Positions 1 through 12,430 of a stretch of DNA of 12,430 bases are shown here, one piece after another (the stretch's first letter is position 1; each line of letters opens with the position of its first letter). The notes beneath the pieces were generated by a model, which had not been told where the DNA came from, did not search any database, and saw only the letters and a program-made list of their open reading frames with translations. The position numbers and the translations under genes were made by a program. Origin of the DNA: a virus. Location: the UHGV virus genome UHGV-0392688. One strand, 5' to 3'.

Positions 1-166
1 GGTTTCTCTTTTGCATTTAAAATGCCAAGAGGGCAATTCTTTGTTGATGTTACGAAAACAGGGAAGGTAAAGGCTGGCGTAAATATTAGTGGTGAAAGCG
101 GAATTACTTATTCATCATGTAGAATAGATACTCATAATGTTGATTATGATCGTTAATTTTATTACC
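1..166 (+). CDS. 3' end of an upstream gene, 55 codons visible (...KTGKVKAGVNISGESGITYSSCRIDTHNVDYDR*), product unknown
   Basis: Frame 1 is open from the window edge to TAA at 164-166; the stretch looks much more AT-rich than the tail genes that follow; a terminator hairpin lies just downstream. Start is outside the window. Confidence 0.3.
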
Positions 167-170
167 TAAT

Positions 171-199
171 AAAAAACCGCGTTTACACGCGGTTTTTAT
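171..199 (+). terminator. Rho-independent terminator candidate
   Basis: A-run, stem CCGCG (177-181) / CGCGG (188-192) with loop TTTACA, then TTTTT (193-197). It sits between the upstream gene fragment and the first tail gene. Confidence 0.5.
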
Positions 200-212
200 T
201 TGAGGTGACGCC

Positions 213-1586
213 ATGGATTTTTCTCATATTTCTTCGTACCTATCCTCTGATTCTCGAAGTGGCTGGCGTGAAAAGCTACTTGAAGCATCATTTCGAGGTG
301 TGCCGTTTAAGGTTGAAGAAGAAAGTGCGGGAACCGGTCGCCGTGTGGAAACACATGAATACCCGAACCGCGACAAGCCCTATACCGAAGATCTGGGAAA
401 AGTCACTTTCCGCCCGTCCATCACAGCTTATGTGGTGGGAGATGACTGCTTTGACCAGCGCGATCGCCTGATTGAAGCGCTGAATAAACCCGGTCCCGGC
501 ACGCTTGTCCACCCGACATATGGTGAGCTGAAAGTCTGTGTTGACGGGGAAGTTCGGGTCAGCACATCGAAAAGTGAAGGGCGTATTGTCCGCTTTGACC
601 TGAAGTTTGTCGAAGCAGGAGAACTCTCTTACCCCACATCAGGTGCGGCGACGGCGCAGACGCTGATGTCATCCTGTTCTGCACTGGATGACTGCATCAG
701 TGACAGCTTCAGCGGTTTCAGTATCGATGGTGTGGCGGATTTCGTGCAGAACGACGTTATCGGTAATGCCAGCATAATGCTGGGGTATGTTTCTGATGCG
801 ATGAAAGTGGTGGATTCTGCCGTATCGGATGCCGCCAGGCTGTTGCAGGGGGATATCTCGGTACTTCTGCCGCCACCATCGTCAGGCAAAAATTTCGTTG
901 AGCAGGTGCAGAAAATGTGGCGTACCGGGAAACGCCTTTATGGTAACGCCAGCGACCTTGTCACCATGATCAAAACGCTTTCCGGTGTCAGCCTCGGCAG
1001 CGATCTGCAACCGCGCGGCGTCTGGAAAACGGACAGTAAAACCACCGCCACGGCGACGCAGCAGCGTAACGTGGTTGCCAGCACCCTTCGTACGACCGCA
1101 ATCAGCGAAGCGGCGTATGCCGTCACACGATTGCCTGCGCCCACAACTTCCGCGGTGATGCAGAATGCCACAGTGGGGCAGTCAACAACACCCGCGCAGA
1201 GCACCGGCTGGCCTTCTGTCACGCATCCGGCACTGAACAATGCACCGGCGGTGAAAAACACGGTTGACCTGCCAACGTGGGAAGAACTGACCGACATTCG
1301 CGACACACTGAATACGGCAATTGATAAGGAGTTGTCCCGTACAACCAGTGATGCGCTGTTTCTGGCGCTGCGCCGGGTGAAAGCAGATCTGAATGCGGAT
1401 ATCAACACGCGCCTTGAACAGTCTGCACGGATCATTCAGCGCACGCCGGATGAGGTTTTACCCGCGCTGGTGCTGGCGGCGACCTGGTTTGATAACGCGG
1501 CGCGTGACGTGGACATTATCCGGCGTAATGCCATTACGCATCCCGGCTTTGTGCCGGTGATCCCTCTGAAGGTGCCAGTGCAATGA
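213..1586 (+). CDS. Mu N-like tail protein (DNA circularisation protein family)
   Basis: 457-aa ORF; the N-terminal region resembles the Mu gpN / DNA_circ_N family by eye. GAGG at 202-205 lies 7 nt before the ATG. Its stop overlaps the next gene's start (ATGA at 1583-1586). First gene of a co-directional baseplate cluster. Confidence 0.55.
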   Translation: MDFSHISSYLSSDSRSGWREKLLEASFRGVPFKVEEESAGTGRRVETHEYPNRDKPYTEDLGKVTFRPSITAYVVGDDCFDQRDRLIEALNKPGPGTLVHPTYGELKVCVDGEVRVSTSKSEGRIVRFDLKFVEAGELSYPTSGAATAQTLMSSCSALDDCISDSFSGFSIDGVADFVQNDVIGNASIMLGYVSDAMKVVDSAVSDAARLLQGDISVLLPPPSSGKNFVEQVQKMWRTGKRLYGNASDLVTMIKTLSGVSLGSDLQPRGVWKTDSKTTATATQQRNVVASTLRTTAISEAAYAVTRLPAPTTSAVMQNATVGQSTTPAQSTGWPSVTHPALNNAPAVKNTVDLPTWEELTDIRDTLNTAIDKELSRTTSDALFLALRRVKADLNADINTRLEQSARIIQRTPDEVLPALVLAATWFDNAARDVDIIRRNAITHPGFVPVIPLKVPVQ

Positions 1587-2662
1587 ACGACAATGTCACG
1601 CTACGGGTAAATGGCCGGGAGTGGAATGGCTGGACATCGGTGCGCATCGGTGCCGGTATTGAACGGCTGGCGCGGGATTTCAGTGTGGAGATCACCCGCC
1701 AGTGGCCGGGAGATGAGGGTATCACCACGCTTCAGCCGCGCATTAAAAACGGTTCAAAAGTGGAAGTGCTGATTGGTGATGAGCTGGTGATCACCGGCTG
1801 GGTGGAGGCGACGCCCGTTCGTTACGATGCCCGTTCGGTCAGCACTGGTATTGCCGGACGCAGTCTAACCGCTGATCTGATTGACTGTGCAGCCGAACCG
1901 ACACAGTTTAACGGACGATCGCTGGTACAGATTGCGCAGGCGCTTGCTGCGCCCTTCGGCATTGAGGTGGTGAACAACGGTGCGCCGTCGGGTGTTATTC
2001 CTGACGTCCAGCCTGATCACGGTGAAACGGTGATTGAGGTAATCAACAAAATACTCGGTCAGCAGCAGGCACTGGCTTACGACGACCCGCACGGCAGGCT
2101 GGTGATTGGCGGTATTGGCTCAACGCGGGCACATACCGCGCTGGTACTTGGGGAAAACATCCTTTCCTGTGATACGGAGAAGAGTATCCGGGAGCGGTTT
2201 TCAGTTTACCAGGTGGCGGGGCAGCGTGCCGGAAACGACGATGATTTCGGTGAGGCCACCACCACCGCGCTGCGGGCCCGCACAGAGGACGCATTTATTG
2301 CCCGTTACCGTCCGATGTATATCAGGCAGACAGGGCAGGCCACGGGGGCAGGCTGTATTGCGCGTGCTGACTTTGAAGCCCGACAACGGGCGGCGCGGAC
2401 GGATGAAACCACCTATGTGGTGCAGGGCTGGCGACAGGGTAACGGTACGCTGTGGCAGCCCAACCAGCGGGTGATTGTCTTTGATCCGGTCTGTGGTTTC
2501 GACAATACCGAACTGCTTGTTTCGGAAGTCACGTTTACTCAGGACCAGAACGGCACCCTGACGGAAATCCGTGTCGGCCCGCCTGATGCTTATCTGCCTG
2601 AACCCGAAGATCCCGGCGCGCGGAAAAAGAAAAAAGCCAGAGTACAGGAGGACCCGTTCTGA
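1583..2662 (+). CDS. Baseplate hub / tail protein (Mu gpP/gp44-like, phage late control D family)
   Basis: 359-aa ORF in the Mu position after N. Coupled to both neighbours by ATGA overlaps at 1583-1586 and 2660-2664. Confidence 0.55.
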   Translation: MNDNVTLRVNGREWNGWTSVRIGAGIERLARDFSVEITRQWPGDEGITTLQPRIKNGSKVEVLIGDELVITGWVEATPVRYDARSVSTGIAGRSLTADLIDCAAEPTQFNGRSLVQIAQALAAPFGIEVVNNGAPSGVIPDVQPDHGETVIEVINKILGQQQALAYDDPHGRLVIGGIGSTRAHTALVLGENILSCDTEKSIRERFSVYQVAGQRAGNDDDFGEATTTALRARTEDAFIARYRPMYIRQTGQATGAGCIARADFEARQRAARTDETTYVVQGWRQGNGTLWQPNQRVIVFDPVCGFDNTELLVSEVTFTQDQNGTLTEIRVGPPDAYLPEPEDPGARKKKKARVQEDPF

Positions 2663-3210
2663 TGAGGGCGATTGAAACCATACAGCGACAACTCCTCGGG
2701 CTGATTGGGCGGGCCGTGGTGAAAAGCATCAGTGCCGCAACGAAATGTCAGACCGTGGATGTGTCCCTGATTGCCGGTGAACCCAAAGCCGGGGTTGAAC
2801 ATCTTGAACCTTACGGTTTTACCGCAAGGGCAAACAGCGGTGCGGAAGCGGTGGTGTTGTTTCCGGATGGCGACCGTTCTCATGCGGTGGTTGTTACGGT
2901 GTCGGATCGGCGTTACCGCCTGAAAGGGCTGCAGACGGGTGAGGTGGCTGTCTATGACGATCAGGGGCAGTCCGTGACGCTGACCCGGGAGGGGATCGTG
3001 GTGGACGGTGCAGGTAAAACGATCACGTTTCGCAATTCACCTAAAGCACGTTTTGAAATGGACCTGGAAGTGACAGGACAGGTGAAAGACCTGTGCGACT
3101 CCAGCGGTACCACCATGTCAGCGATGCGGCTTGCCTATAACGGGCATCGTCACAGAGAGAACGGTCAGGGCAGTAACACCGACAAACCTGATAAAGCGAT
3201 GGAGGCGTGA
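2662..3210 (+). CDS. Baseplate central spike / assembly protein V-like (Mu gp45-like)
   Basis: 182-aa ORF. The C-terminal YNGHRHRENG contains the HxH motif typical of spike apex domains. Position between hub and GP46-like gene matches Mu order. Confidence 0.6.
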   Translation: MRAIETIQRQLLGLIGRAVVKSISAATKCQTVDVSLIAGEPKAGVEHLEPYGFTARANSGAEAVVLFPDGDRSHAVVVTVSDRRYRLKGLQTGEVAVYDDQGQSVTLTREGIVVDGAGKTITFRNSPKARFEMDLEVTGQVKDLCDSSGTTMSAMRLAYNGHRHRENGQGSNTDKPDKAMEA

Positions 3211-3635
3211 TGGAACTGTGGCTGACGGTGAACGGTAAACGCACCTGCGCCAGCGCACCGCTGGATCCGCTGACCCGCGCCGTGGTGATTTCCCTGTTTA
3301 CCTGGCGGCGGGCGGAGCCTGATGACAACGCCGACGTCCCGATGGGATGGTGGGGGGATACCTGGCCTGCGGTACAGAATGACCGTTACGGCTCCCGACT
3401 GTGGCTGCTTCAGCGCAGCAAACTGACCAATCAGCTGGTGCAGACGGTAAGGGGGTATATCCGCGAATGCCTGCAATGGATGATTGATGATGGCGTGGTG
3501 TCCCGTATTGATCTGGATATCCGCCGCACCGGGATTAATGAACTGGGTAACAGTATCACTCTCTGGCGTCGTGACGGACCGGTAATGATTTCTTTTGATG
3601 ATCTGTGGAGTGCGATAACGCATGGCGGACAGTGA
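3210..3635 (+). CDS. Baseplate protein, GP46 family (Mu gp46-like)
   Basis: ORF track gives 3207-3635 starting at GTG; I prefer the ATG at 3210, which has GGAGG at 3201-3205 and overlaps the upstream stop as TGATG. About 141 aa, the size and position expected for Mu gp46. Confidence 0.55.
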   Translation: MELWLTVNGKRTCASAPLDPLTRAVVISLFTWRRAEPDDNADVPMGWWGDTWPAVQNDRYGSRLWLLQRSKLTNQLVQTVRGYIRECLQWMIDDGVVSRIDLDIRRTGINELGNSITLWRRDGPVMISFDDLWSAITHGGQ

Positions 3636-4680
3636 ATTTCAGCGCCCGACGCTGGCAGAAAATATCAGTATGCTCCGTAACGATTTATTCGCCAGGCTGG
3701 ACGTCAGCGACACGCTCCGGCGCATGGATGAAGACGTGCGGGCAAAGGTGTATGCGGCGGCGCTGCATACGGTTTACGGTTACATCGATTATCTGGCAAT
3801 GAACATGCTGCCTGATCTGTGCGATGAGTCCTGGCTGGCGCGACATGCTGCGATGAAACGGTGTCCGCGCAAGGGGGCCACGGCTGCCAGCGGGTATATG
3901 CGCTGGGAAGGTGTCAGCGATGGCCTGAAGGTGACCGCCGGGAGTGTTATTCAGCGCGATGACCTGGTTCAGTACACGGCAACTGCCGATGCAATCAGCA
4001 CTGGTGGTGTCCTGCGTGTGCCGATCACTTGCTCAACTACAGGCGCGGTCGGTAACGCTGACGACGGTACGGCATTAATCCTGGTCACGCCGGTGAATGG
4101 TCTGCCGTCTTCCGGTGTGGCTGACACCCTGACAGGCGGATTTGATACTGAAGAGCTGGAAACGTGGCGCGCCCGCGTCATTGAGCGGTATTACTGGACG
4201 CCTCAGGGCGGGGCTGACGGGGACTATGTCGTCTGGGCTAAAGAAGTGCCCGGCATTACCCGCGCATGGACATACCGACACTGGATGGGAACGGGGACTG
4301 TCGGTGTGATGATTGCCAGCAGTGACCTGATTAATCCCATTCCGGAAGAGTCAACGGAAACGGCGGCAAGACAACATATCGAGCCACTGGCCCCGGTGGC
4401 AGGCTCTGATTTGTATGTATTCAGGCCGGTGGCGCATAAAGTGGATTTTCATATCCGCGTGACGCCGGACACACCGGAAATACGGGCTGCCATCACCGCC
4501 GAGTTGCGTTCGTTCCTGCTGCGTGATGGTTATCCGCAGGGAGAACTGAAGGTGTCACGTATCAGTGAAGCGATTTCCGGTGCGAACGGGGAATACAGCC
4601 ATCAGTTGCTTGCCCCGGCGGACAATATCTCCATTGCAAAAAATGAGCTGGCGGTTCTGGGGACGATTTCATGGACGTGA
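3622..4680 (+). CDS. Baseplate J-like protein (Mu gp47-like)
   Basis: 352-aa ORF of the size and position of baseplate J family proteins; overlaps the upstream gene by 14 nt. Confidence 0.6.
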
Positions 4681-5255
4681 CAAACGATGATTATATCCGT
4701 CTGTTGTCGGCACTGTTGCCGCCCGGTCCGGCGTGGTCAGTCAGCGATCCGGCGATTGCCGGTGCGGCACCGTCATTAACCCGCGTTCATCAGCGTGCGG
4801 ATGCCCTGATGCGGGAGCTGGATCCGCGCACCACCACTGAACTGATAAACCGCTGGGAGCGTCTGTGCGGTCTGCCGGATGAATGTATTCCCGCAGGGAC
4901 ACAGACCCTTCGCCAGCGTCAGCAACGGCTGGATGCGAAGGTTAATCTGGCGGGCGGCATCAATGAGGATTTTTATCTTGCACAGCTTGCTGCCCTGGGC
5001 AGACCAGACGCCACTATCACGCGATACGATAAAAGCACGTTCACCTGCTCATCGGCCTGTACTGACGCAGTGAATGCGCCGGAATGGCGGTATTACTGGC
5101 AGGTCAACATGCCAGCCGCCACCAACACCACCTGGATGACATGTGGCGATCCCTGTGATTCCGCACTGCGTATCTGGGGCGACACCGTTGTCGAGTGCGT
5201 GCTTAACAAACTCTGCCCTTCGCATACCTACGTAATTTTTAAATATCCGGAGTAA
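4671..5255 (+). CDS. Tail protein, DUF2313 family (Mu gp48-like / YmfQ-like)
   Basis: 194-aa ORF directly after the baseplate J-like gene and before the tail fibre; size and context match the Mu gp48 / e14 YmfQ family. Confidence 0.55.
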
Positions 5256-5258
5256 TCC

Positions 5259-5906
5259 ATGCATCGTATAGACACGAAAACCGCGCAGAAGGATAAGTTC
5301 GGCGCGGGTAAGAACGGTTTTACCCGTGGTAACCCCCAGACCGGCACACCTGCCACCGATCTGGATGATGACTACTTTGACATGTTGCAGGAGGAGCTTT
5401 GCAGCGTTGTGGAGGCATCCGGTGCCAGCCTGGAGAAGGGGCGGCACGACCAGCTGCTTACCGCGCTTCGTGCGCTGCTGTTAAGCCGCAAGAATCCGTT
5501 TGGTGATATCAAATCGGATGGCACGGTGAAAACGGCTCTCGAAAACCTTGGTTTAGGAGAAGCGGCGAAAAGGGATGTGGGCACAGGAGATAATCAGATA
5601 CCGGATATGGGAGCATTCGCTTCTGGTTCGGGATGGTTCAGGCTACCAGGTGGATATATTGTTCAGTTTGGCACTTTTGCAGGAAACACGACCCGCTTTA
5701 TCAGTGGACACTTCCCTATACCATTCCCTAATCAGCCGATGGTTTCAGTCAGTGTTATGTCTGATGCCGTTCAGTCAGACCCGTCGAATCCTGCCCCGCA
5801 GGTTTTGTCTGTAAATTTTGAACATATCAGTAATTCAGCGTGGCGTGTGGCAACCAGTGATATCTCACAGCAATACAGATTCAGTTATATTTCGATAGGA
5901 CGGTAG
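5259..5906 (+). CDS. Short tail-fibre protein: constant N-terminal part (about residues 1-97) fused to a variable C-terminal part encoded inside the invertible segment
   Basis: 215-aa ORF. A 26-bp Hin/Gin-type crossover site lies inside the coding sequence at 5536-5561 (codons for ...ENLGLGE...). It is followed by a tail-fibre assembly gene. Resembles short e14-type tail fibres by eye. Confidence 0.6.
5536..5561. repeat. Left inversion crossover site (hix/gix/pix-like, 26 bp)
   Basis: CTCTCGAAAACC TT GGTTTAGGAGAA: two 12-bp half-sites around a 2-bp core, matching the AAAACC-NN-GGTTT pattern of Hin-family sites. The inner half-site is an 11/12 inverted repeat of the inner half-site at 7364-7375. 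Confidence 0.65.
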
Positions 5907-5908
5907 AA

Positions 5909-6349
5909 ATGCAGAAATATATTTTCAGTGCCGATAAAAATGCGTTTTTCCCTGTGGAGCTTAAAATCGCTTATCAGGAATCCGGCGAATGGCCCGGTGA
6001 TGGAATCGAAATTGACGACACTGTTGCCGCCGAATTTATGAAGGAAGCACCAGAAGGAAAATACAGAGGTGTCATCGACGGAATGCCTGCATGGATTGAT
6101 ATTCCACCGCCAACTCATGAGGAACAAATTGCCGCAGCCGAACTGGAAAAGCAGCAATTGATTAATCAGGTCAACGAATACATAAACAGTAAGCAATGGC
6201 CTGGTAAAGCGGCGATTGGTCGCCTGAAAGGTGAGGAACTGGCGCAATATAATTTGTGGCTGGATTATCTGGACGCACTGGAACTGGTCGATACTTCTGG
6301 TGCGCCAGATATTGAATGGCCTACGCCTCCGGCAGTTCAGGCCAGATGA
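5909..6349 (+). CDS. Tail fibre assembly protein (Tfa/U-like), partner of the currently expressed fibre variant
   Basis: 146-aa ORF directly after the fibre gene. Its C-terminal motif (TSGAPDIEWPTPP) is echoed in the convergent gene's C-terminus (TSTAPDVIWPELP), as expected for paralogous assembly proteins. Confidence 0.6.
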   Translation: MQKYIFSADKNAFFPVELKIAYQESGEWPGDGIEIDDTVAAEFMKEAPEGKYRGVIDGMPAWIDIPPPTHEEQIAAAELEKQQLINQVNEYINSKQWPGKAAIGRLKGEELAQYNLWLDYLDALELVDTSGAPDIEWPTPPAVQAR

Positions 6350-6923
6350 CATCCGGCGCGGTGCTGGTATCTGTTGCCGCCACCGCGTCAATGTAATCCA
6401 GCACAGCGTTAAGCCGGGTTGTTTCTGCCTGCGTCAGCTTCCGCCCGGCCCGTAATTTCAGCTGAATCAGACTGATGGAAGCCATTGCAGCATCAATCAG
6501 CGACTGGCGCTTTGCTTCTGCCGCTTCTACTGCGGCACTATGTTGTGCCTCGGTATCCGTCACCCATTTCTCACCATCCCATTTATCATATGGCGTTAAC
6601 GGGGCGATAGTGGTTGTATTTTCAGGGTAATCACCCGGAGCTGTGATTTCTTTCGATTCTCCTGTTTCGGTGCTATAGATGATTTCACCGCGATGGTCTG
6701 GCACATATTCCCATGAGTTAAAATCTGCAGAACGGCAGATTGCATAACCAGCTTTATGTGTAACTGGTGCATCTAAACAAGAACATGCCGGTATACCGAC
6801 GCCAACCGCAAGATATTCAGTTGATGTGGAAATATATTCCCGCGTTTCACCATCATAATTATAAATGGTAATGTCTCCCGCTTTTATGGCAATGAGTTCG
6901 TTATTTAATACGGCTTTATTCAT
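6321..6923 (-). CDS. Tail fibre assembly protein (Tfa/U'-like), alternative orientation
   Basis: 200-aa ORF on the minus strand inside the invertible segment. It follows the alternative fibre C-terminal segment with a 1-nt stop/start overlap at 6923, and its 3' end overlaps the + strand assembly gene (6321-6349). Confidence 0.6.
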   Translation of the reverse strand: MNKAVLNNELIAIKAGDITIYNYDGETREYISTSTEYLAVGVGIPACSCLDAPVTHKAGYAICRSADFNSWEYVPDHRGEIIYSTETGESKEITAPGDYPENTTTIAPLTPYDKWDGEKWVTDTEAQHSAAVEAAEAKRQSLIDAAMASISLIQLKLRAGRKLTQAETTRLNAVLDYIDAVAATDTSTAPDVIWPELPEA

Positions 6924-7377
6924 CAGGCTGCCCTCACGATATAGTTAAATGCGACGTTGCGCGGCCGTGTCTCTGCACCAACGCGAGGCTGACCGCCTGC
7001 AAAATTGGTTGATGATACAGGACCAACCAAATCACCATCGCCAGTTCGTGTGTTCCCGCCATCGGGTAGCGCGCCGGAGCCACCGAATGCACCAATGTAC
7101 GATATGCGGATGTTACTGTGCCCGTGGTTTTGCAGCTGGTCTGTCTGTGATGAACCAAGATTTCTTGACGGGTCTACCCCGCGCCCATCATCCCATCCAC
7201 GAATAAATTCACCGCGTAAATCAGGCAATTTATTTGTCGGGTAAGCCTTTGCCAGTTCCGGGTATTCTTCAGCAGAAAAAGCCGCACCATTGCATTTCAA
7301 CCAGCCTGTTGGCGGAGTGGCTGAAGGCCACGGAACAGGCACCCCAACAGGTAATGCTGAGCCTTCTCCCAAACCAA
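6923..7377 (-). CDS. Promoterless alternative tail-fibre C-terminal segment (tail-collar-like), expressed only after inversion fuses it to the constant N-terminus
   Basis: The minus-strand frame is open from the crossover site (...KVGLGEGSALPVG...) with no ATG; the ORF track's start at 7372 is a TTG. It encodes the same LGLGE junction peptide as the left site. The region ...AAFSAEEYPELAKAYPTNKLPDLRGEFIRGWDDGRG... resembles phage tail-collar/fibre C-terminal domains. Confidence 0.55.
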
Positions 7378-7389
7378 CCTTTCAAATAT
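7364..7389. repeat. Right inversion crossover site (inverted copy)
   Basis: TTCTCCCAAACC AA CCTTTCAAATAT; its reverse complement ...TT GGTTTGGGAGAA matches the left site's core and inner half-site at 11/12 positions. Confidence 0.6.
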
Positions 7390-7416
7390 TTTTCTGAATC
7401 AGGTGATATTTCGCCT

Positions 7417-7443
7417 CTTCTCCTGTTTTTACAACAGGAGAAG
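7417..7443 (+). promoter_or_regulatory. Perfect 11-bp stem hairpin enclosing the invertase Shine-Dalgarno
   Basis: CTTCTCCTGTT (7417-7427), loop TTTAC, AACAGGAGAAG (7433-7443). The AGGAG at 7436-7440 is the only plausible RBS for the ATG at 7449. Confidence 0.45.
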
Positions 7444-7448
7444 CACTC

Positions 7449-8012
7449 ATGATTTACGGGTATGTTCGTGTATCAACAAATCATCAGGATACAGAGTTGC
7501 AACGTCTTGCACTTGAGTCAGCTGGCTGTGAGCGAATTTATGAAGAATATGCCAGTGGCAGAACAGCTAATCGCCCTGTGTTAAAGGAATTAATTACGGT
7601 GATGAAAAGTGGAGATGAGTTGATTGTCTGGAAGTTAGATCGGATAGGGAGAAATGTGCTGCATGCGCTATTGATGTTTCAAAATCTGCACGAAAAAGGT
7701 GTTAATTTTCGGAGTATTACAGATGGCGTAGACCTGAAAACAGCAAGTGGTCGCTATAATTTCCGTAATATTCTTTCTGCTGCGCAGTATGAATCTGATT
7801 TGAATAGCGAGCGAACTTTAGCTGGTTTGGCTATTGCCAGATCCAAAGGCCGGATTGGTGGGCGTAGACCGAAGTTTAGCGACGAGCAGTGGCAACAGAT
7901 GGGAGCGCTCATAGCGGCAGGGAAATCACGGCGTTATGTTGCACGTATCTATAACGTTGGGCTATCAACCCTATATAAACGATTTCCTGTTACTGGCATT
8001 CAAACGAAATAA
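7449..8012 (+). CDS. pin: Serine recombinase, DNA invertase (Hin/Gin/Pin family)
   Basis: 187 aa. N-terminal YVRVSTNHQ carries the catalytic serine; GRIGGRRPK and a C-terminal helix-turn-helix (LSTLYKRF) are typical of the family. Sits directly next to the invertible segment. Confidence 0.8.
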   Translation: MIYGYVRVSTNHQDTELQRLALESAGCERIYEEYASGRTANRPVLKELITVMKSGDELIVWKLDRIGRNVLHALLMFQNLHEKGVNFRSITDGVDLKTASGRYNFRNILSAAQYESDLNSERTLAGLAIARSKGRIGGRRPKFSDEQWQQMGALIAAGKSRRYVARIYNVGLSTLYKRFPVTGIQTK

Positions 8013-8052
8013 TTTAAAAGCAATTTAAAGAGTTATTTGTCTAATGTTGGAA

Positions 8053-8088
8053 GCCGCAGCCACGTCGTATGCAAGAACGTGCTGCGGC
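8053..8088. terminator. GC-rich hairpin between convergent invertase and dinI-like genes (terminator or recombination-site candidate)
   Basis: GCCGCAGCCACG ... CGTGCTGCGGC imperfect inverted repeat with a 13-nt loop. There is no clear U-tract on either side, so its role is uncertain. Confidence 0.3.
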
Positions 8089-8155
8089 TGGCTGGCGAAC
8101 TTTCGATAGTGCGAGTATTGAATGATTTCCAGCCGTTACCGATTTTACGTGTTAA

Positions 8156-8404
8156 TTAGTGAACAAACCACTCGTCAGCAGATTCCCAGGTATCTTTCAG
8201 AGTCTCCTGAACAAAAGTTTTTGCAGAATCCTTATCTGCGGTGCGTGTAACAGAAAGGCCATCGTTGCTGGTGGCTTTTACGATCACCTCTACATCGTCA
8301 TAACGTTTACTGATGCGTCGGGTTAATTCTTCCTTTAACGCATCCACAGCACCGGTTGGCATTTTAGTCATTTTTTCTTTGGCTATGCAGATTTCAATAC
8401 GCAT
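8156..8404 (-). CDS. dinI: DinI-family protein (SOS-inducible RecA modulator-like)
   Basis: 82 aa, [11 protein letters not shown]...[11 protein letters not shown], matching the DinI family pattern (MRIE...ETWESAD.WFV). GAGGG RBS 6 nt upstream. Two LexA boxes lie directly upstream. Confidence 0.75.
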
Positions 8405-8417
8405 AAAAGTCCCTCTA

Positions 8418-8437
8418 TACTGTGTTTGTATACAGTA
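8418..8437. promoter_or_regulatory. LexA (SOS) box 1
   Basis: TACTGTGTTTGTATACAGTA, i.e. CTGT-N8-ACAG with flanking TA/TA, close to the consensus TACTGTATATATATACAGTA. It is 14 bp upstream of the dinI-like start codon. Confidence 0.7.
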
Positions 8438-8445
8438 TTATTTTT

Positions 8446-8465
8446 AACTGTATAGATAAACAGTG
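8446..8465. promoter_or_regulatory. LexA (SOS) box 2
   Basis: AACTGTATAGATAAACAGTG, CTGT-N8-ACAG; it abuts the integrase stop codon (8466-8468). Confidence 0.6.
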
Positions 8466-9563
8466 TCAAGAGGCCTTATTTCTGCTCCTTTGGAGCTCTT
8501 CAAAACGATTATGTAAAGATTTCGGATACAGTTCGGTATATACCTGCCATAGCACGTTTAATGAACGATGCCCTGTAACCTGGGCGACTTCCTCAATACT
8601 AAAACCAGCCTCAAATAAGCGACTTGCCCCTTCTCTACGCAAATCATGGTATCGCAGATCTTTAATACCTAATTTGCTTCTTACCCTCTGGAATCCCGCA
8701 GTAACAGAAGTGCTGTTATATGGAAAAATGAATTCTGATTTTTTGGGTTGTCGTTGGACGATATCCCAGGCTTCCCCAAGCAAGGCTACTTTCATATGGT
8801 TGCCTTCCTTTTTACGTGGATCTTTCCTGTCTCTTACGAGTATGGATTTTTGTTCCTGATCGAGATCCTCCCATCGTAATCGGCATACTTCACCGATTCG
8901 CATACATGACCACACAGAAAATTTGAGGATATCAACGAACGGAATTTTTGAGCATTTATGTGTAGATCGTTGTTGAAGACCTTCAATGAGCATGTCCAGT
9001 TCATCAGATGCCGGTCTACGATTACGACGATTTGATTTACCAATTAAACCAAGTTTAAGTAGATATGGACGAGCGGCTTTTGCTGGGTTTGATGTGTAAT
9101 TAATTCCATATACAGGTTTGGCAGCATCCAGAACACTGCCAAGATAACTAACATCGTGGCTAACTGTAGCTGGACCTGCACCAGCGTTGTTTCTTAGCCT
9201 GCAATGTTCAATTACGTCATTTTCTGTCAGTTCAGATAGTTTGAGCGCGGAGACGTCACTATCCATAAGCAGTTCCAGCACATATCTTTTAGTACGGCCT
9301 GCTTTACCTCCGGCATTTGGGTCATTTAAATATTTGTGTAGTAAGTCACGGACTGTAAGTCCGTCAACTGCATTTGATGATGGAATGCCATATAGATCTA
9401 ATTCCATCACTTTCTGTGTGCCCCATGTTTTGGCATGAGCATGTTTAGGGAATGTTTTACTTTCCCTGTAAGTGATAACACCTTTTTCTTTGATAATCAC
9501 ATTACAGCGATAGCGTGGTGTGCCATCGGATTTTAGTCGTTTCTCTATGTTATAGTATGCCAT
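8466..9563 (-). CDS. int: Tyrosine site-specific recombinase (phage integrase)
   Basis: 365 aa. The C-terminal catalytic region has the R...HxxR...H...Y pattern (CMRIGEV..., RYHDLRREG, VTGHRSLNVLWQVYTEL). GAGG RBS 8 nt upstream of the ATG. Confidence 0.8.
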   Translation of the reverse strand: MAYYNIEKRLKSDGTPRYRCNVIIKEKGVITYRESKTFPKHAHAKTWGTQKVMELDLYGIPSSNAVDGLTVRDLLHKYLNDPNAGGKAGRTKRYVLELLMDSDVSALKLSELTENDVIEHCRLRNNAGAGPATVSHDVSYLGSVLDAAKPVYGINYTSNPAKAARPYLLKLGLIGKSNRRNRRPASDELDMLIEGLQQRSTHKCSKIPFVDILKFSVWSCMRIGEVCRLRWEDLDQEQKSILVRDRKDPRKKEGNHMKVALLGEAWDIVQRQPKKSEFIFPYNSTSVTAGFQRVRSKLGIKDLRYHDLRREGASRLFEAGFSIEEVAQVTGHRSLNVLWQVYTELYPKSLHNRFEELQRSRNKAS

Positions 9564-9583
9564 TACACGACCTCGTTATTTCG

Positions 9584-9606
9584 GGTTCCCATAAAACGTG
9601 GGAACC
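9584..9606. promoter_or_regulatory. Perfect palindrome GGTTCCCA-N7-TGGGAACC just upstream of the integrase start (operator or protein-binding site candidate)
   Basis: 8-bp arms with a 7-bp spacer, 21-43 bp upstream of the int ATG. Further GGGAACC copies at 9612-9618 and 9810-9816, with TGGGAACCTGT repeated at 9599-9609 and 9809-9819. Confidence 0.4.
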
Positions 9607-10009
9607 TGTGCGGGAACCTAACGCGAGAAAAATAGCCTGAAATGTTCAAAAATGCACGATAATCATGAAACACAAAAAATTAATCAAACCAGCGTGATGC
9701 CTGAAAAAACTGGTGTTTACTGGAATTCTCGGTTTAGCATTGCTCCTATGCTCGATAGGATGTACCGTTGTTGAAAAACAACTAGTTATACACTTTGTGG
9801 GAGCCTATTGGGAACCTGTTATTCTTAGAAAGCATCATTTGCTCATCACTTCAATTGACCATGATTAAAGCCAGCTATAAACTTGACAAACAAGGTAACT
9901 AGTTGCTTAGGCCTAAGTGGGCACACCATAAGAAGCGCATGTTGGTGATGAAGCAACCTATGAAGAATCAAGAATAATTACAAAGTTCACTATCTTTGAG
10001 GTTTCTTAT

Positions 10010-10582
10010 ATGTTTTGCGAAGAAAAAGTAGCTCAAATGGCTGCATACCTACTTCTTAAGCGAGGTGGGCGCATGGCATATCTGAAATTGATGAAGCTGC
10101 TCTATCTGTCTAACCGCAAGTCGATTTTGAAGCATGGCAGGATGATCGGCGAAGATAGCCTTTACTCTATGAAATTTGGTCCAGTCATGTCGAATACGCT
10201 GAACTTGATTCGTGGTAAGGCTGAAGGCATTGGTGACTACTGGTACAACTTGATAGAGACGAACGGGCATGATGTGTTGTTGCGTTCAGATCCGAGGGAA
10301 ATGGATGCAGACGAGGTCTTTGATGAGTTGAGCCGTGCAGATATCCGGATTTTAGATGAAATCTATTCTCTGTATGGGCATATGAACCGATTTGATCTCG
10401 CAAACATGACGCATTTAGAAAGCGTTTGTCCAGAGTGGCACAATCCTGGCAATTCTCGTAAGCCTATAGACCTGAAAGAAATGCTGATCAGTGAGGGTAA
10501 AAGCGAGGATGAGGCTAATCGTATAATTGGCAAAATGGAAGAATCTCAGAAACTTAAGGAATTTTCTTTGCAATTATCATGA
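10010..10582 (+). CDS. Panacea-domain (DUF4065, SocA/GepA-like) protein, candidate antitoxin or sensor of a two-gene module
   Basis: 190 aa. The N-terminal half (...AAYLLLKRGGRMAYLKLMKLLYLSNRKS...MKFGPV...) matches the DUF4065/Panacea pattern. GAGG RBS 9 nt upstream. Stop overlaps the next ATG (ATGA at 10579-10582). Confidence 0.6.
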   Translation: MFCEEKVAQMAAYLLLKRGGRMAYLKLMKLLYLSNRKSILKHGRMIGEDSLYSMKFGPVMSNTLNLIRGKAEGIGDYWYNLIETNGHDVLLRSDPREMDADEVFDELSRADIRILDEIYSLYGHMNRFDLANMTHLESVCPEWHNPGNSRKPIDLKEMLISEGKSEDEANRIIGKMEESQKLKEFSLQLS

Positions 10583-10995
10583 CGGATTATCAGCCATACA
10601 GGAAAGGAACTGTGCTTGCCCCAACTGGGCCATGCAATCATCTTCATGTGATTTGTAATGATCCTGTTTATTACCCCGTTAACGATTGTTATTGTGTTTT
10701 AGTTGTTAATATTTCTAGTATCAAGGATGGTGTCCCCCACGATCCGTCTTGCGTCTTGAATTCTGGTGATCATCGCTTTATCAAGCATCCAAGTTATGTT
10801 GTTTACGCTGAAGCTATAATTTGGCGAGTGGATAACATGGTTAGAAAGCAGCGATCGGGTGAGATTTCTGTTCATGATGATATGCCAGAAGCTACATTCA
10901 ATAGAATTCTGGACGGTTTTGATATATCTGATGAAGTTACGCCAAAGAACCTTAAATTTAAAAATAAATATTGCGTATCATCTATTGATGATTAG
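10579..10995 (+). CDS. Hypothetical 138-aa protein, candidate toxin/effector partner of the Panacea-domain protein
   Basis: Coupled to the upstream gene by a 4-bp ATGA overlap. AT-rich coding sequence. His/Cys-rich N-terminal half (NHLHVICND..., CYCVLVV, HDPSCVL, DHRFIKH) and acidic C-terminus. I do not recognise any family. Confidence 0.5.
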   Translation: MTDYQPYRKGTVLAPTGPCNHLHVICNDPVYYPVNDCYCVLVVNISSIKDGVPHDPSCVLNSGDHRFIKHPSYVVYAEAIIWRVDNMVRKQRSGEISVHDDMPEATFNRILDGFDISDEVTPKNLKFKNKYCVSSIDD

Positions 10996-11037
10996 TAAAC
11001 AACAGGAATTTTTTCGGTATAGCTTCTGGAGTTTTCT

Positions 11038-11211
11038 ATGGAAGATCAAAAAGCAACCAAGCCACAGGTTAAGTTCGACACAATGAAAGCATTCGCAGGT
11101 ATGGGGGCTGCTGTTGAAGTTCTGATGAAGGCTGTTCCTAATGCGTTCACTCACGCTACTGTCTCTGGTAAAGAGCAGCAGGGTAAGCTTCGTCGTCGCA
11201 AAGCAGCATGA
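11038..11211 (+). CDS. Small 57-aa protein (MEDQKATKPQVKFDTMKAFAGMGAAVEVLMKAVPNAFTHATVSGKEQQGKLRRRKAA), unknown function
   Basis: Not in the ORF track. ATG at 11038 with GGAG at 11028-11031 (6-nt spacer), TGA at 11209-11211, and a strong terminator 20 bp downstream. Same strand as the Panacea pair. Confidence 0.4.
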   Translation: MEDQKATKPQVKFDTMKAFAGMGAAVEVLMKAVPNAFTHATVSGKEQQGKLRRRKAA

Positions 11212-11230
11212 TCATAGCTGGTGCTTTTTG

Positions 11231-11260
11231 AAAACCCGCCTTCAGGCGGGTTTTTTCTTT
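11231..11260. terminator. Bidirectional rho-independent terminator
   Basis: AAAA CCCGCC TTCA GGCGGG TTTTTTCTTT: a 6-bp GC stem with A-run and T-run flanks, between the convergent small ORF (+) and PrtN-like gene (-). Confidence 0.75.
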
Positions 11261-11540
11261 AGTGATGTTCTTTGCCCTTCTGTTTGACTGTTCTGACCTG
11301 TTCCCACTCGATACGTCCTTCTTCTCGCCTTTTGTCTATGTATTCCGCAAGATCCTGAATATTGATGCAACGTTTTGCTTTTTGTGATGTGCCGATGCGA
11401 TATGTTGGAACGGGCAACTTACAAGCGTTTGCTTTTGCTTCTGCCGTGGCTGGACTCATACCAAAGTACTTTTGGCTAACTGCTGAGAGTTCAATGTTTG
11501 GGGTATTGAATTCAGCCATCAGTAAAAACAAGGTGTTCAT
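11259..11540 (-). CDS. PrtN-family small DNA-binding protein (possible excisionase-like or transcriptional activator)
   Basis: The ORF track extends to 11567, but the ATG at 11540 (MNTLFLLMAEF...) has a GGAG RBS 8 nt upstream and gives a 93-aa product. The N-terminus resembles PrtN/pyocin-activator-type proteins by eye. Lies in the leftward operon toward int. Confidence 0.45.
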   Translation of the reverse strand: MNTLFLLMAEFNTPNIELSAVSQKYFGMSPATAEAKANACKLPVPTYRIGTSQKAKRCINIQDLAEYIDKRREEGRIEWEQVRTVKQKGKEHH

Positions 11541-11576
11541 AATTTTCTCCATCAAAACCGGCTGCACCCGGGAAAA

Positions 11577-12149
11577 TCATAATTCTGTGCTGGTGGCAGG
11601 AATTAATTTCTGCCAGATAGCGGAAACATATTTTGCCTGATGACGGGCATCAGCCAGGGCGTTGTGCCGTTCGCCATCGAAAGGCATGTCCATTTTGGGG
11701 TCGAATCCGATGGAACGCCCAAGCGTAACGATCGTGCGTACATCGTGGTCATTCCAGTACGCCCACGGGCAGATTTGTCCTGCTCGCTCGTAAGCTCCAC
11801 GTAAAATTACGTTGTCGAAGGTGGCCCCGTTACCCCAGACTTTTAAATATTTTGTATTGTCTGCATGCTGATTAATGAAATGGCTCAGTTCAGAGAGTGC
11901 ATCGCTGATCGACAAAGTATCATCAATACATATTGCAGCTCGTGCTTCAGAGCTCTGTTTCAACCACCACAGGATGGTATCGCCGTCAGGTGTAGCTCCT
12001 TGCTTCATAGCACTGTCCAAGCTGACAACCGTATAGAATTCTTGTCCGATGTCTCCTGTTTCTAGGGTGAAGAACACCGCGCCAATGGAAACGATCGGCG
12101 CGTCCTTATTTTTCCCCATCGTCTCAAGGTCGATCATTAAGTTGTTCAT
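11577..12149 (-). CDS. DnaQ-like 3'-5' exonuclease (DEDDh family), prophage exonuclease
   Basis: The ATG at 12149 has an AGGAGGT RBS; the track's 12152 start is a GTG. Motifs: IDLETMG (Exo I, D-x-E), GNGATFDNVIL (Exo II) and HNALADARH (Exo III, H-x4-D). Start overlaps the upstream stop by 1 nt (TGATG). Confidence 0.65.
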   Translation of the reverse strand: MNNLMIDLETMGKNKDAPIVSIGAVFFTLETGDIGQEFYTVVSLDSAMKQGATPDGDTILWWLKQSSEARAAICIDDTLSISDALSELSHFINQHADNTKYLKVWGNGATFDNVILRGAYERAGQICPWAYWNDHDVRTIVTLGRSIGFDPKMDMPFDGERHNALADARHQAKYVSAIWQKLIPATSTEL

Positions 12150-12430
12150 CACTTCACCTCCTGCGGCGGTTCCGGTAGCGGCATCCAGTGAGTTGCTTGC
12201 TCAATACCATTACCCGGCTTAATCGTTGCATCTCCGCGCCGAAAGGTGCTTCCGGTATAGCGTGCGGAGCATATTAGCGGTTCAACCAGAGAGCTATCGA
12301 AATTCACCGAAATAAGCACGTTCTGGCCCTTTTCAGGCATTCTATCACTACAGCTTATCCAACTATCCGGAGTTACCGGAGAGTTGCCCGATAGCTGGTT
12401 CAACTTGTAAGTTTGGCTTACAGGTTCGGC
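12149..12430 (-). CDS. DUF551-domain phage protein, 5' end probably outside the window
   Basis: The minus-strand frame is open to the window edge; the track's start at 12403 is a TTG. ...WISCSDRMPEKGQNVL... and the C-terminal HWMPLPEPP match the DUF551 pattern. Confidence 0.5.
   Translation of the reverse strand, partial: AEPVSQTYKLNQLSGNSPVTPDSWISCSDRMPEKGQNVLISVNFDSSLVEPLICSARYTGSTFRRGDATIKPGNGIEQATHWMPLPEPPQEVK

What the first reader, a model, noticed from the sequence alone, without database searches (positions are those of the whole stretch)
10010..10995. Panacea-domain (DUF4065) gene translationally coupled to an unassignable 138-aa ORF: candidate toxin-antitoxin or anti-phage module with a possibly new effector
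Seen in sequence: two + strand ORFs overlap as ATGA (10579-10582). The first (190 aa) has the N-terminal signature I associate with the Panacea/DUF4065 domain (AAYLLLK...AYLKLMKLLYL...MKFGPV). The second is AT-rich, His/Cys-rich and acidic at its C-terminus, and I cannot match it to any toxin family. Established knowledge: Panacea-domain proteins (SocA in the SocAB system; PanA in PanAT pairs) neutralise many unrelated toxin domains, and such pairs are often carried on prophages. Inference: this is a two-gene toxin-antitoxin or abortive-infection cargo, and the partner may be an uncharacterised effector. Which gene is the toxin is not determinable from sequence.
Basis: partly seen in the sequence, partly recalled or inferred. 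Interest (0 to 1): 0.8.

Follow-up and report, generated by a model that had tools for sequence, protein, structure and literature searches.

The report
Prophage PanA antitoxin with MazF-fold toxin
This is a two-gene toxin-antitoxin cassette carried as swappable cargo at the end of an E. coli prophage; its "unassignable" second gene belongs to an already published toxin family with a MazF-like fold, so it is a new copy of a known kind of system, not a new effector.

Summary
ORF1 (10010-10582, 190 aa) is a Panacea/DUF4065 protein (PF13274, 67.9 bits, E 1.8e-18). It overlaps ORF2 (10579-10995, 138 aa) by ATGA.

The pair is a PanA-PanT toxin-antitoxin module, but the partner is not a new effector.
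- Its homologues sit immediately downstream of a Panacea gene in all 24 loci with upstream sequence (17 of 17 confirmed by Pfam), across Gamma-, Alpha- and Betaproteobacteria.
- Two of those loci are the genomes listed in toxin cluster T6 of Kurata et al. 2022 (PMC8832971), with the same -4 and -1 overlaps. [quoted passage not shown] Its P. moraviensis member was shown there to be toxic, to inhibit translation, and to be bound and neutralised by PanA.

So the 138-aa gene is the toxin.

Open points: no sequence-level link to PF02452, no Pfam model, a conserved His/Asp/Cys/His set in place of MazF's Arg/Thr, and no test of a defence role. The cassette (9817-11024) fills a swappable slot beside attP in dusA-integrating prophages and occurs in 205 of 5,426 complete E. 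coli genomes.

Verdict: new member of a known kind, modest interest.

The parts
9652..9756 (+). Phage-borne copy of the 5' end of dusA, which is the attP identity segment. In lysogens the prophage junctions fall at about 9649 and about 9755.
   Evidence: PGAP annotates a partial DusA CDS here in L001 (locus 6053-6157 equals window 9652-9756). Integrated prophages match from query position 250 or 340 onward at one end and up to 356 at the int end.
9817..11024 (+). Swappable cargo cassette: its own upstream region plus panA and panT.
   Evidence: The window is collinear with phage mEp460 at 8051-9816 and 11025-12388 (about 97% identity). The interval between them is replaced there by an unrelated 0.8-kb insert with a 177-aa ORF. 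O157:H7 prophages carry that other cargo.
9855..9883 (+). Candidate sigma-70 promoter (TTGACC-17-TAAACT) inside the cassette. Weak evidence only.
   Evidence: Consensus scan, 9 of 12 matches. The region has fewer such sites than shuffled sequence (3 against 5.1), so this is a position-based guess.
9998..10001 (+). Shine-Dalgarno GAGG, 8 nt before the panA ATG.
   Evidence: Read directly from the sequence.
10010..10582 (+). panA: a 190-aa single-domain Panacea antitoxin with no N-terminal DNA-binding domain and a C-terminal helical extension (helices 155-161 and 166-189).
   Evidence: PF13274 at 67.9 bits. AF2 model has pLDDT 93.2. It is 43-46% identical to Pseudomonas PanAs that start IFSEQKVAQ. 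PanA dN/dS is about 0.02.
10579..10582 (+). ATGA stop/start overlap (translational coupling). No Shine-Dalgarno lies at a functional distance before this ATG.
   Evidence: Sequence. The -4 or -1 overlap is conserved in most Gammaproteobacterial loci and in the paper's T6 table.
10579..10995 (+). panT: a 138-aa toxin with a MazF/Kid/CcdB-like fold plus two extra C-terminal helices. Conserved core: H21 and D55 (invariant), with C58, H65, S72, Y76 and S117 at 90% or more.
11038..11211 (+). 57-aa basic ORF (phrog_2741). It is prophage backbone, not cargo, and may be co-transcribed because no terminator separates it from panT.
   Evidence: phrog_2741 E 5.8e-35. It is retained in mEp460 and O157 prophages whatever the cargo. 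No terminator was found between 10995 and 11038.
11230..11255 (+). Strong intrinsic terminator (11-bp stem followed by a T run) that ends the rightward transcript. It lies between the convergent ORF57 and the PrtN-like excisionase gene.
   Evidence: Terminator scan. Sub-threshold Rfam hits all fall on this hairpin.

Best explanation
This is a type II PanA-PanT toxin-antitoxin module carried as a discrete cargo cassette at the att-proximal end of a dusA-integrating lambdoid prophage.

The downstream 138-aa gene is the toxin. It is a highly divergent protein of the MazF/Kid/CcdB fold and belongs to PanT cluster T6 of Kurata et al. 2022. By analogy with the validated Pseudomonas member, it most likely arrests growth by blocking translation, probably as an endoribonuclease.

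The upstream 190-aa Panacea protein is the antitoxin. It binds the toxin directly and holds it inactive.

The ATGA overlap, with no Shine-Dalgarno of its own, makes toxin synthesis depend on antitoxin translation. That keeps the antitoxin in excess.

When PanA is lost or displaced, free toxin stops translation. This could happen when the prophage is lost, when host transcription is shut off, or when PanA senses an infecting phage. The likely payoff is abortive-infection-type protection of the lysogen, retention of the prophage, or both.

Shown here: domain identity, fold, family membership, conserved pairing, purifying selection, cassette boundaries and genomic position.
Taken from the literature for a homologue: toxicity, translation inhibition, and complex formation with PanA.
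Inferred: RNase chemistry, the catalytic role of the His/Asp/Cys/His set, the trigger, and the biological role.
For: - PanA identity: PF13274 at 67.9 bits.
- Conserved pairing: 24 of 24 loci with upstream sequence have a PanA-like ORF of about 185-195 aa immediately upstream, and 17 of 17 tested hit PF13274.
- T6 membership: Pantoea septica LMG 5345 (L009, -4) and Chimaeribacter coloradensis 2016-Iso4 (L008, -1) are genomes listed in the paper's T6 table with the same overlaps. Proteus and Salinivibrio socompensis homologues also appear in both lists.
- Link to the Pseudomonas branch: a P. fluorescens PanA starts IFSEQKVAQ, the N-terminus restored for the validated P. moraviensis PanA. It is followed at -1 by a 133-aa protein 37% identical to ours, E 2e-30.
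- Literature (PMC8832971): the P. moraviensis T6 PanT is toxic, is neutralised by PanA, pulls down with PanA, and specifically inhibits 35S-Met incorporation.
- Selection: synonymous sites saturated with dN about 0.09.
- Cargo status: cassette 9817-11024 is swapped against a different ORF in mEp460 and O157. It is present in 205 of 5,426 complete E. coli genomes.
- Recurrence in other phages: the pair occurs in temperate phages of Yersinia, Vibrio, Klebsiella, Helicobacter and Pseudomonas. In the P2-like phage Sirocco it sits in the cos-proximal gpA-gpQ defence hotspot.
Against: - There is no sequence-level link to MazF/PemK. PF02452 does not hit the protein or any of 48 diverse family members. 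A profile search of PDB sequences finds no MazF. hhalign against a 4-sequence MazF alignment gives probability 0.1-0.4. Foldseek E-values are only about 1e-3, with TM 0.5-0.67.
- This E. coli pair has never been tested. Other phage-borne PanA partners (cluster T1, from E. coli MOD1 and phage Emek) were not toxic in the same study.
- No PADLOC model matches, and the literature I read reports no PanAT pair shown to defend against phage.
- The toxin is mildly acidic (pI 5.8).
Confidence: 0.78

Rival explanations
1. The same PanAT module works mainly as an addiction or stabilisation device for the prophage. It kills or arrests cells that lose or excise the element, and it is not an anti-phage defence.
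For: The cassette sits directly inside the prophage end next to attP, int and xis. Classical type II TA logic (labile antitoxin, coupled translation) fits post-segregational killing. No defence-system model matches.
Against: An excised lambdoid prophage normally goes lytic, so there is little to stabilise. In the P2-like phage Sirocco the pair occupies a locus defined as an anti-phage hotspot. The slot is swappable, like known defence hotspots. The two roles are not mutually exclusive.
Confidence: 0.3
2. The 138-aa protein has the MazF/CcdB fold but is not an RNase. It may poison another target as CcdB poisons gyrase, or it may use its conserved His/Asp/Cys/His set for a different chemistry, such as metal-dependent or thiol-dependent modification of a translation component.
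Against: The best structural matches are all MazF/Kid RNases, followed by the RNase toxins CptN, ToxN and AbiQ. The validated T6 homologue inhibits translation specifically, not replication. Strand register places H21 and S46/S47 roughly where MazF has R29 and T52; this is inference, not a superposition.
Confidence: 0.15
3. The pair is not a working toxin-antitoxin system in E. coli. The partner is non-toxic in this host, as with the cluster T1 phage pairs, and PanA has another role, such as a phage-encoded neutraliser of host toxins.
For: Several predicted PanT candidates, including two phage-borne enterobacterial ones (E. coli MOD1 and phage Emek, cluster T1), were not toxic when tested. This E. 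coli pair itself is untested.
Against: T1 is a different family: phage Emek has no tblastn match to our protein. Our family is T6, whose tested member was toxic in E. coli. Strict co-occurrence with PanA and strong purifying selection on both genes argue for a working pair.
Confidence: 0.1
4. This is a SocAB-like type VI system. PanA would act as a proteolytic adaptor that delivers the toxin to ClpXP, not as a stoichiometric inhibitor.
For: Panacea is the domain of Caulobacter SocA, and some sources name close homologues 'SocA family protein'.
Against: The NCBIfam SocA equivalog scores 13.5 bits against a cut-off of 190. The partner has a MazF fold and gives no match to any SocB-type family. 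The source paper reports stable PanA-PanT complexes, including for the T6 pair, and concludes that PanATs are type II.
Confidence: 0.04

Closest known systems
PanAT pair of Pseudomonas moraviensis (PanA WP_083354365.1 / PanT WP_083201923.1), toxin cluster T6 of Kurata et al. 2022 (PMC8832971)
   Same: Single-domain Panacea antitoxin upstream ('noNTD'). A partner of about 133-138 aa overlaps it by 1-4 nt, has no CDD or Pfam hit, and is predicted to be MazF-like. The PanA N-terminus is the same (M[I]F.E[EQ]KVAQ). Enterobacterales members of T6 (Pantoea septica, Chimaeribacter) are 55-56% identical to our toxin. A close Pseudomonas relative of the validated pair is 37% (toxin) and 43% (antitoxin) identical to ours.
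   Different: Ours is on an E. coli prophage at the dusA att site, whereas the validated one is marked 'NotPhage'. Ours keeps H23, C26 and H70, which the Pseudomonas branch has replaced. Ours is untested. I could not make a direct comparison with the validated protein's sequence.
MazF/PemK(Kid)/ChpBK endoribonuclease toxins (Pfam PF02452) with MazE/PemI antitoxins
   Different: No detectable sequence similarity (9-17% identity in structural alignments, no PF02452 hit, hhalign not significant). No conserved Arg/Thr catalytic pair. About 25 extra C-terminal residues form two helices. The antitoxin is a Panacea protein, not an AbrB/SpoVT-type MazE/PemI.
CcdB (F plasmid gyrase poison, PF01845)
   Different: It scores lower than the MazF/Kid matches, there is no PF01845 hit, and the tested T6 homologue blocks translation, not replication.
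SocAB (Caulobacter type VI TA)
   Same: The antitoxin carries the Panacea domain.
   Different: The SocA equivalog model is not met (13.5 against 190 bits). The toxin is unrelated to SocB. The neutralisation mode reported for PanATs is direct binding.
Prophage and satellite defence hotspots (P2 gpA-gpQ locus, P4 cos-proximal locus; Rousset et al. 2022, PMC9122126)
   Same: A discrete cassette is exchanged between otherwise collinear prophages at a fixed slot. In the P2-like phage Sirocco the same gene pair sits in the gpA-gpQ hotspot itself.
   Different: The slot here is in a lambdoid dusA-integrating prophage, between attP and xis. I saw only two alternative cargoes, and neither has a demonstrated defence function.

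Membership tests
PanAT (Panacea-antitoxin type II TA systems) | One gene encodes a Panacea/DUF4065 domain (PF13274) above the gathering threshold. | tested here: met
   67.9 bits against a cut-off of 25.7, E 1.8e-18, residues 27-137.
PanAT (Panacea-antitoxin type II TA systems) | Conserved two-gene architecture with an adjacent small partner across unrelated genomes. | tested here: met
   24 of 24 loci with upstream sequence have the pair in A|T order. 17 of 17 upstream ORFs tested hit PF13274. The pair also occurs in 7 further phage records.
PanAT (Panacea-antitoxin type II TA systems) | The partner is toxic and co-expressed PanA neutralises it. | not testable with these tools
   Shown experimentally only for the P. 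moraviensis T6 homologue (PMC8832971).
PanAT (Panacea-antitoxin type II TA systems) | Direct PanA-PanT complex. | not testable with these tools
A pull-down is reported for the P. moraviensis pair.
PanT cluster T6 (Kurata et al. 2022) | Homology to listed T6 members. | tested here: met
   55-56% identity to the PanA-adjacent genes of Pantoea septica LMG 5345 and Chimaeribacter 2016-Iso4, both listed in T6 with matching -4 and -1 overlaps. 37% identity (E 2e-30) to a P. fluorescens PanA partner. A direct comparison with WP_083201923.1 was not possible.
PanT cluster T6 (Kurata et al. 2022) | A|T gene order, antitoxin without an N-terminal domain, overlap or short gap. | tested here: met
   Order and ATGA overlap. 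The PanA model shows no separate N-terminal domain.
MazF/PemK toxins (PF02452) | Sequence match to the PemK_toxin profile. | tested here: not met
   No hit for the protein or for 48 diverse family members. hhalign against MazF, Kid, EndoA and ChpBK gives probability 0.1-0.4. hmmsearch of PDB finds no MazF.
MazF/PemK toxins (PF02452) | MazF/CcdB SH3-like barrel fold with a C-terminal helix. | tested here: met
MazF/PemK toxins (PF02452) | Conserved catalytic Arg and Thr/Ser (R29 and T52 in E. coli MazF). | tested here: inconclusive
   The family has no conserved Arg. H21 (invariant) and S46/S47 lie at roughly equivalent strand positions, judged by secondary-structure register only, because no coordinates were available for superposition.
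MazF/PemK toxins (PF02452) | Sequence-specific endoribonuclease activity. | not testable with these tools
   Only translation inhibition is reported, for a homologue.
SocAB type VI TA | SocA equivalog (NF047745) and a SocB-type toxin. | tested here: not met
   13.5 bits against a cut-off of 190. The partner has a MazF fold.
Catalogued anti-phage defence systems (PADLOC-DB 2.0) | Match to any defence-system protein model. | tested here: not met
   No hits for either protein at E up to 1.

The most novel reading that the evidence does not exclude
The T6 PanT family (at least 2,687 clusters at 50% identity, with no Pfam model) may be a mechanistically distinct branch of the MazF/CcdB fold. It would have replaced the Arg/Thr RNase centre with a conserved His21/Asp55/Cys58/His65 centre. 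It would then either cleave RNA by a different, His-based mechanism or carry out a different reaction on the translation apparatus. In prophages the single-domain PanA would act as the sensor that releases the toxin on superinfection, which would make this cassette a true, uncatalogued abortive-infection system present in about 4% of E. coli genomes.
Probability: 0.2. Interest if true: 0.6.

Novelty: new member of a known kind. Interest (0 to 1): 0.3.

Why it matters
The finding was flagged because the partner looked like a possible new effector. It is not one. It is an untested E. coli prophage copy of a published PanT family whose representative is a validated translation-inhibiting toxin.

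What remains useful:
- It corrects a systematic annotation gap. RefSeq calls the gene 'hypothetical' and starts it 11 codons late. One phage record does not annotate it at all. No Pfam, NCBIfam or PADLOC model exists, although the family is large.
- It points to a conserved His/Asp/Cys/His set that differs from MazF's catalytic residues, so the chemistry of this family is still open.
- It defines a clean, swappable cargo slot next to attP in dusA-integrating prophages. That gives a natural E. coli system in which to test whether PanAT pairs defend against phage. Nobody has shown this for any PanAT pair.

Tried and rejected
- Sequence searches for the partner found nothing meaningful in Pfam, NCBIfam or PADLOC. 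Only the unannotated phrog_19071 matched. phmmer and hmmsearch against PDB sequences returned noise only.
- Profile-profile comparison of the family alignments (A1, A5) with a small MazF/Kid/EndoA/ChpBK alignment was not significant. The proposed register was topologically sensible, but I do not count it as evidence.
H23, C26 and H70 are replaced in Pseudomonas and in the wider family, so that six-residue site is rejected. A centre using H21, D55, C58 and H65 remains possible.
- I considered that the pair might belong to cluster T1, the phage-borne pairs found non-toxic. Phage Emek has no tblastn match to our protein, so this is rejected.
- PanA: no PDB sequence hit and no fold match in PDB.
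- Rfam search of 9400-11400: only sub-threshold hits on the terminator hairpin, so no RNA antitoxin.
- Operator search upstream of panA: only short repeats of 8-9 nt, not convincing.
- The promoter scan is no better than chance.
- Cluster look-ups did not return the WP accessions needed to match T6 entries by name. I established membership through shared genomes instead.
- The inverted-repeat search around the invertase-associated tail-fibre segment found nothing of 16 nt or more.
Full report
**Observation.** ORF1 runs 10010-10582 (190 aa) and ORF2 runs 10579-10995 (138 aa), and they share ATGA at 10579-10582. ORF1 scores 67.9 bits on PF13274 SocA_Panacea (cut-off 25.7, E 1.8e-18, residues 27-137). 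ORF2 has no hit in Pfam, NCBIfam or PADLOC. It matches only phrog_19071, which has no annotation. ORF2 is AT-rich (38.4% GC against 49.8% for the window), has 6 His and 6 Cys, and has a mildly acidic C-terminal third.

**Start codon.** RefSeq/PGAP starts ORF2 at GTG 10612 (WP_014640052.1, 128 aa). Phage annotators use the overlapping ATG. In a 40-sequence alignment of homologues, conservation begins at residues 5-11: P6, K9 and T11 are at 90% or more, and G10 is invariant. The predicted first strand starts at residue 11. The ATG at 10579 is therefore the real start. It has no Shine-Dalgarno at a functional distance, since AAGGA lies about 18 nt upstream. This fits termination-reinitiation coupling to panA. 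panA itself has GAGG 8 nt before its ATG.

**What the partner is.**
- A homology search found about 60 clusters at 90% identity in Enterobacterales, Vibrio and Shewanella, all unannotated. A profile search reached 197.
- An exhaustive profile search of 1.84 billion representatives found 2,687 proteins at E ≤ 1e-3 and 926 at ≤ 1e-10. Nearly all of the listed best hits are single-domain proteins of about 125-150 aa.
- An AlphaFold2 model built on the alignment is confident (pLDDT 93.2, pTM 0.86).
- Foldseek's first 37 PDB hits are all MazF (probability 1.0, TM 0.5-0.67, best E 1.3e-3).
- The partner is therefore a divergent MazF/CcdB-fold protein with two extra C-terminal helices (104-116 and 122-131). 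It is not a new fold.

**Link to the literature.** Kurata et al. 2022 (PMC8832971) catalogued the partners of Panacea antitoxins.
- Their toxin cluster T6 has A|T gene order, an antitoxin with no N-terminal domain, and overlaps of -4 or -1. HHpred annotates it as 'EndoA/PemK/MazF-family RNAses'.
- The P. moraviensis member was validated: it is toxic, PanA neutralises it, it pulls down with PanA, and it specifically inhibits 35S-methionine incorporation.
- A scan of one genome per species found 26 loci that encode relatives of our protein.
- Two of them are genomes in the T6 table, with exactly the tabulated overlaps: L009 (Pantoea septica LMG 5345, -4) and L008 (Chimaeribacter coloradensis 2016-Iso4, listed as 'Yersiniaceae bacterium 2016Iso4', -1).
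- In all 24 loci with upstream sequence, a PanA-like ORF of about 185-195 aa lies immediately upstream. All 17 that I submitted to Pfam hit PF13274.
- A P. fluorescens PanA begins IFSEQKVAQ, the very N-terminus the authors restored for the P. moraviensis PanA. It is followed at -1 by a 133-aa protein that is 37% identical to ours over 125 residues (E 2e-30). The two PanAs are 43% identical.
- I conclude that ORF2 is a member of PanT cluster T6, so it is the toxin, and ORF1 is its antitoxin.
- Cluster T1 contains an E. coli pair and a Salmonella phage Emek pair that were not toxic. It is a different family, because Emek has no tblastn match to our protein.

**Limits of the MazF assignment.**
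- The relationship is visible only at the fold level.
- PF02452 hits neither the protein nor any of 48 diverse family members.
- A profile search of PDB sequences finds no MazF.
- hhalign against a small alignment of E. coli MazF, Kid, B. subtilis EndoA and ChpBK gives probability 0.1-0.4.
- The MazF catalytic Arg/Thr pair has no conserved equivalent.
- Across Alpha-, Beta- and Gammaproteobacterial members, the motif H21-L-H23-x-x-C26-x-D28-P29 and residues D55, C58, H65, H70, S72 and Y76 are conserved.
- In the most diverse set only H21 and D55 are invariant, with C58, H65, S72, Y76 and S117 at 90% or more. H23, C26 and H70 are replaced in Pseudomonas.
- By strand register, H21 and S46/S47 lie roughly where MazF has R29 and T52. 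This is inference, because I had no coordinates to superpose.
- RNase activity is therefore the most likely mechanism, but it is not established for this family. The source paper also only predicted it.

**The antitoxin.** The PanA model is confident (pLDDT 93.2) and has no separate N-terminal DNA-binding domain. Beyond the Pfam match it has helices at 155-161 and 166-189. Ernits et al. 2023 (PMC10440598) show that standalone Panacea domains neutralise toxins directly, and that C-terminal helices do so in a Doc-paired PanA. Which element is used here cannot be decided without a complex model. No solved structure resembles PanA.

**Genomic setting.**
- The window is an E. coli temperate phage or prophage.
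- From left to right it carries: baseplate and tail-fibre genes, a Gin-type invertase (7449-8012), DinI (8156-8404, - strand), a tyrosine integrase (8466-9563, - strand), a phage-borne 5' fragment of dusA (about 9652-9756), the module, a 57-aa ORF (11038-11211), a strong terminator (11230-11255), a PrtN-family excisionase (11259-11567, - strand) and an exonuclease.
- In integrated prophages the junctions fall at about 9649 and about 9755. The module is thus the first cargo inside the prophage end. It lies about 250 bp downstream of the displaced host dusA promoter and its first 35 codons, on the same strand.
- The window is collinear with phage mEp460 up to 9816 and again from 11025. The 1.2 kb between those points is replaced in mEp460 and in O157:H7 prophages by an unrelated 177-aa ORF with no Pfam hit. 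The module is therefore a discrete, exchangeable cassette.
- It is present at 80% coverage or more in 205 of 5,426 complete E. coli genomes, and at 100% protein identity in phages SKA5 and Lys8385Vzw.
- Homologous pairs occur in temperate phages of Yersinia (next to int and DinI), Klebsiella, Vibrio, Helicobacter and Pseudomonas.
- In the P2-like phage Sirocco the pair lies just before portal and terminase at the genome end. This is the cos-proximal gpA-gpQ region that Rousset et al. 2022 (PMC9122126) defined as an anti-phage hotspot.

**Selection.** Against the Kosakonia and Pluralibacter orthologues, dN is about 0.09 while synonymous sites are saturated. PanA dN/dS is about 0.02. Both genes are maintained by purifying selection.

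**Mechanism and role.** The best-supported reading is a type II PanAT module.
- Coupled translation keeps PanA in excess, and PanA binds and silences the MazF-fold toxin.
- When PanA is lost or displaced, the toxin blocks translation.
- Toxicity, translation inhibition and complex formation rest on the published homologue. RNase chemistry, the trigger and the biological role are inferred.
- The position in exchangeable prophage slots, including a recognised defence hotspot, favours abortive-infection-type protection of the lysogen.
- However, no PADLOC model matches, the NetFlax study validated defence only for a RosmerTA system, and an E. coli functional defence screen does not mention the domain.
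- Prophage addiction is a live alternative, and the two roles are not exclusive.

**Verdict.** The 'possibly new effector' is a member of a published, experimentally anchored PanT family with a MazF-like fold. This makes the finding a new member of a known kind. Three points keep some interest: the unassigned chemistry of a large family that has no model, the systematic mis-annotation or non-annotation of the gene, and a convenient natural E. coli system for testing whether PanAT pairs defend against phage.

Noticed in passing
window 10579-10995; L034 (Pseudomonas phage Sirocco OR683410) about 1501-1863: The toxin gene is systematically mis-annotated. RefSeq/PGAP starts it at GTG 10612 (WP_014640052.1, 128 aa), which removes conserved residues P6, K9, G10 and T11. 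In phage Sirocco it is not annotated at all, and only a 135-nt antisense CDS is called there.
   Followed up: yes
window 9817-11024 versus L003 3218-4020 (mEp460 gp23) and L030 2784-3317 (O157 AR-0427, WP_000956557.1): The same slot between the att site and ORF57/xis holds an unrelated 177-aa ORF with no Pfam hit in mEp460 and in O157:H7-type prophages. This is a second, uncharacterised cargo of a swappable prophage locus.
   Followed up: partly
window 11038-11211 (+): A 57-aa basic ORF (pI 10.2, phrog_2741, no Pfam hit) is conserved in the prophage backbone whatever the cargo. No terminator separates it from panT, so it may be co-transcribed with the cassette. Its function is unknown.
   Followed up: partly
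L031 2504-2862 and L030 2533-2784 (integrated prophages); corresponds to window about 9652-10010: In lysogens the displaced host dusA promoter and the first 35 codons of dusA lie about 250 bp upstream of the cargo on the same strand. The cassette could therefore be expressed by read-through only when the phage is integrated.
   Followed up: no
window 1-8050, especially 5259-8012: The left two-thirds of the window (Mu/P2-like baseplate genes) is not shared with the lambdoid relatives L001-L003, so the phage is mosaic. A Gin/Cin-type invertase (7449-8012) sits next to oppositely oriented tail-fibre and assembly genes: 5259-6349 on the + strand and 6321-7372 on the - strand. This looks like an invertible host-range segment, but no inverted repeats of 16 nt or more were found.
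   Followed up: partly
window 8466-10010; L001 4867-6411 (E. coli GPEC1352 chromosome): Integrase, the dusA' fragment and the cargo are contiguous, which is the unrecombined attP arrangement. This holds both in the window and inside a chromosomal record. It suggests a tandem or unintegrated copy, or an assembly of the excised form.
   Followed up: no
L032 3674-4552 (P. fluorescens CP025542.1) and L033 2033-2944: The Pseudomonas PanAT relative lies about 0.7 kb from a reverse-transcriptase (RVT_1) gene, with two small ORFs between them. This may be a small defence island (retron- or DRT-like).
   Followed up: no
window 11259-11567 (-): The PrtN (pyocin activator) family protein at the classical xis position is annotated as excisionase in mEp460. 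PGAP names it only 'pyocin activator PrtN family protein'.
   Followed up: no
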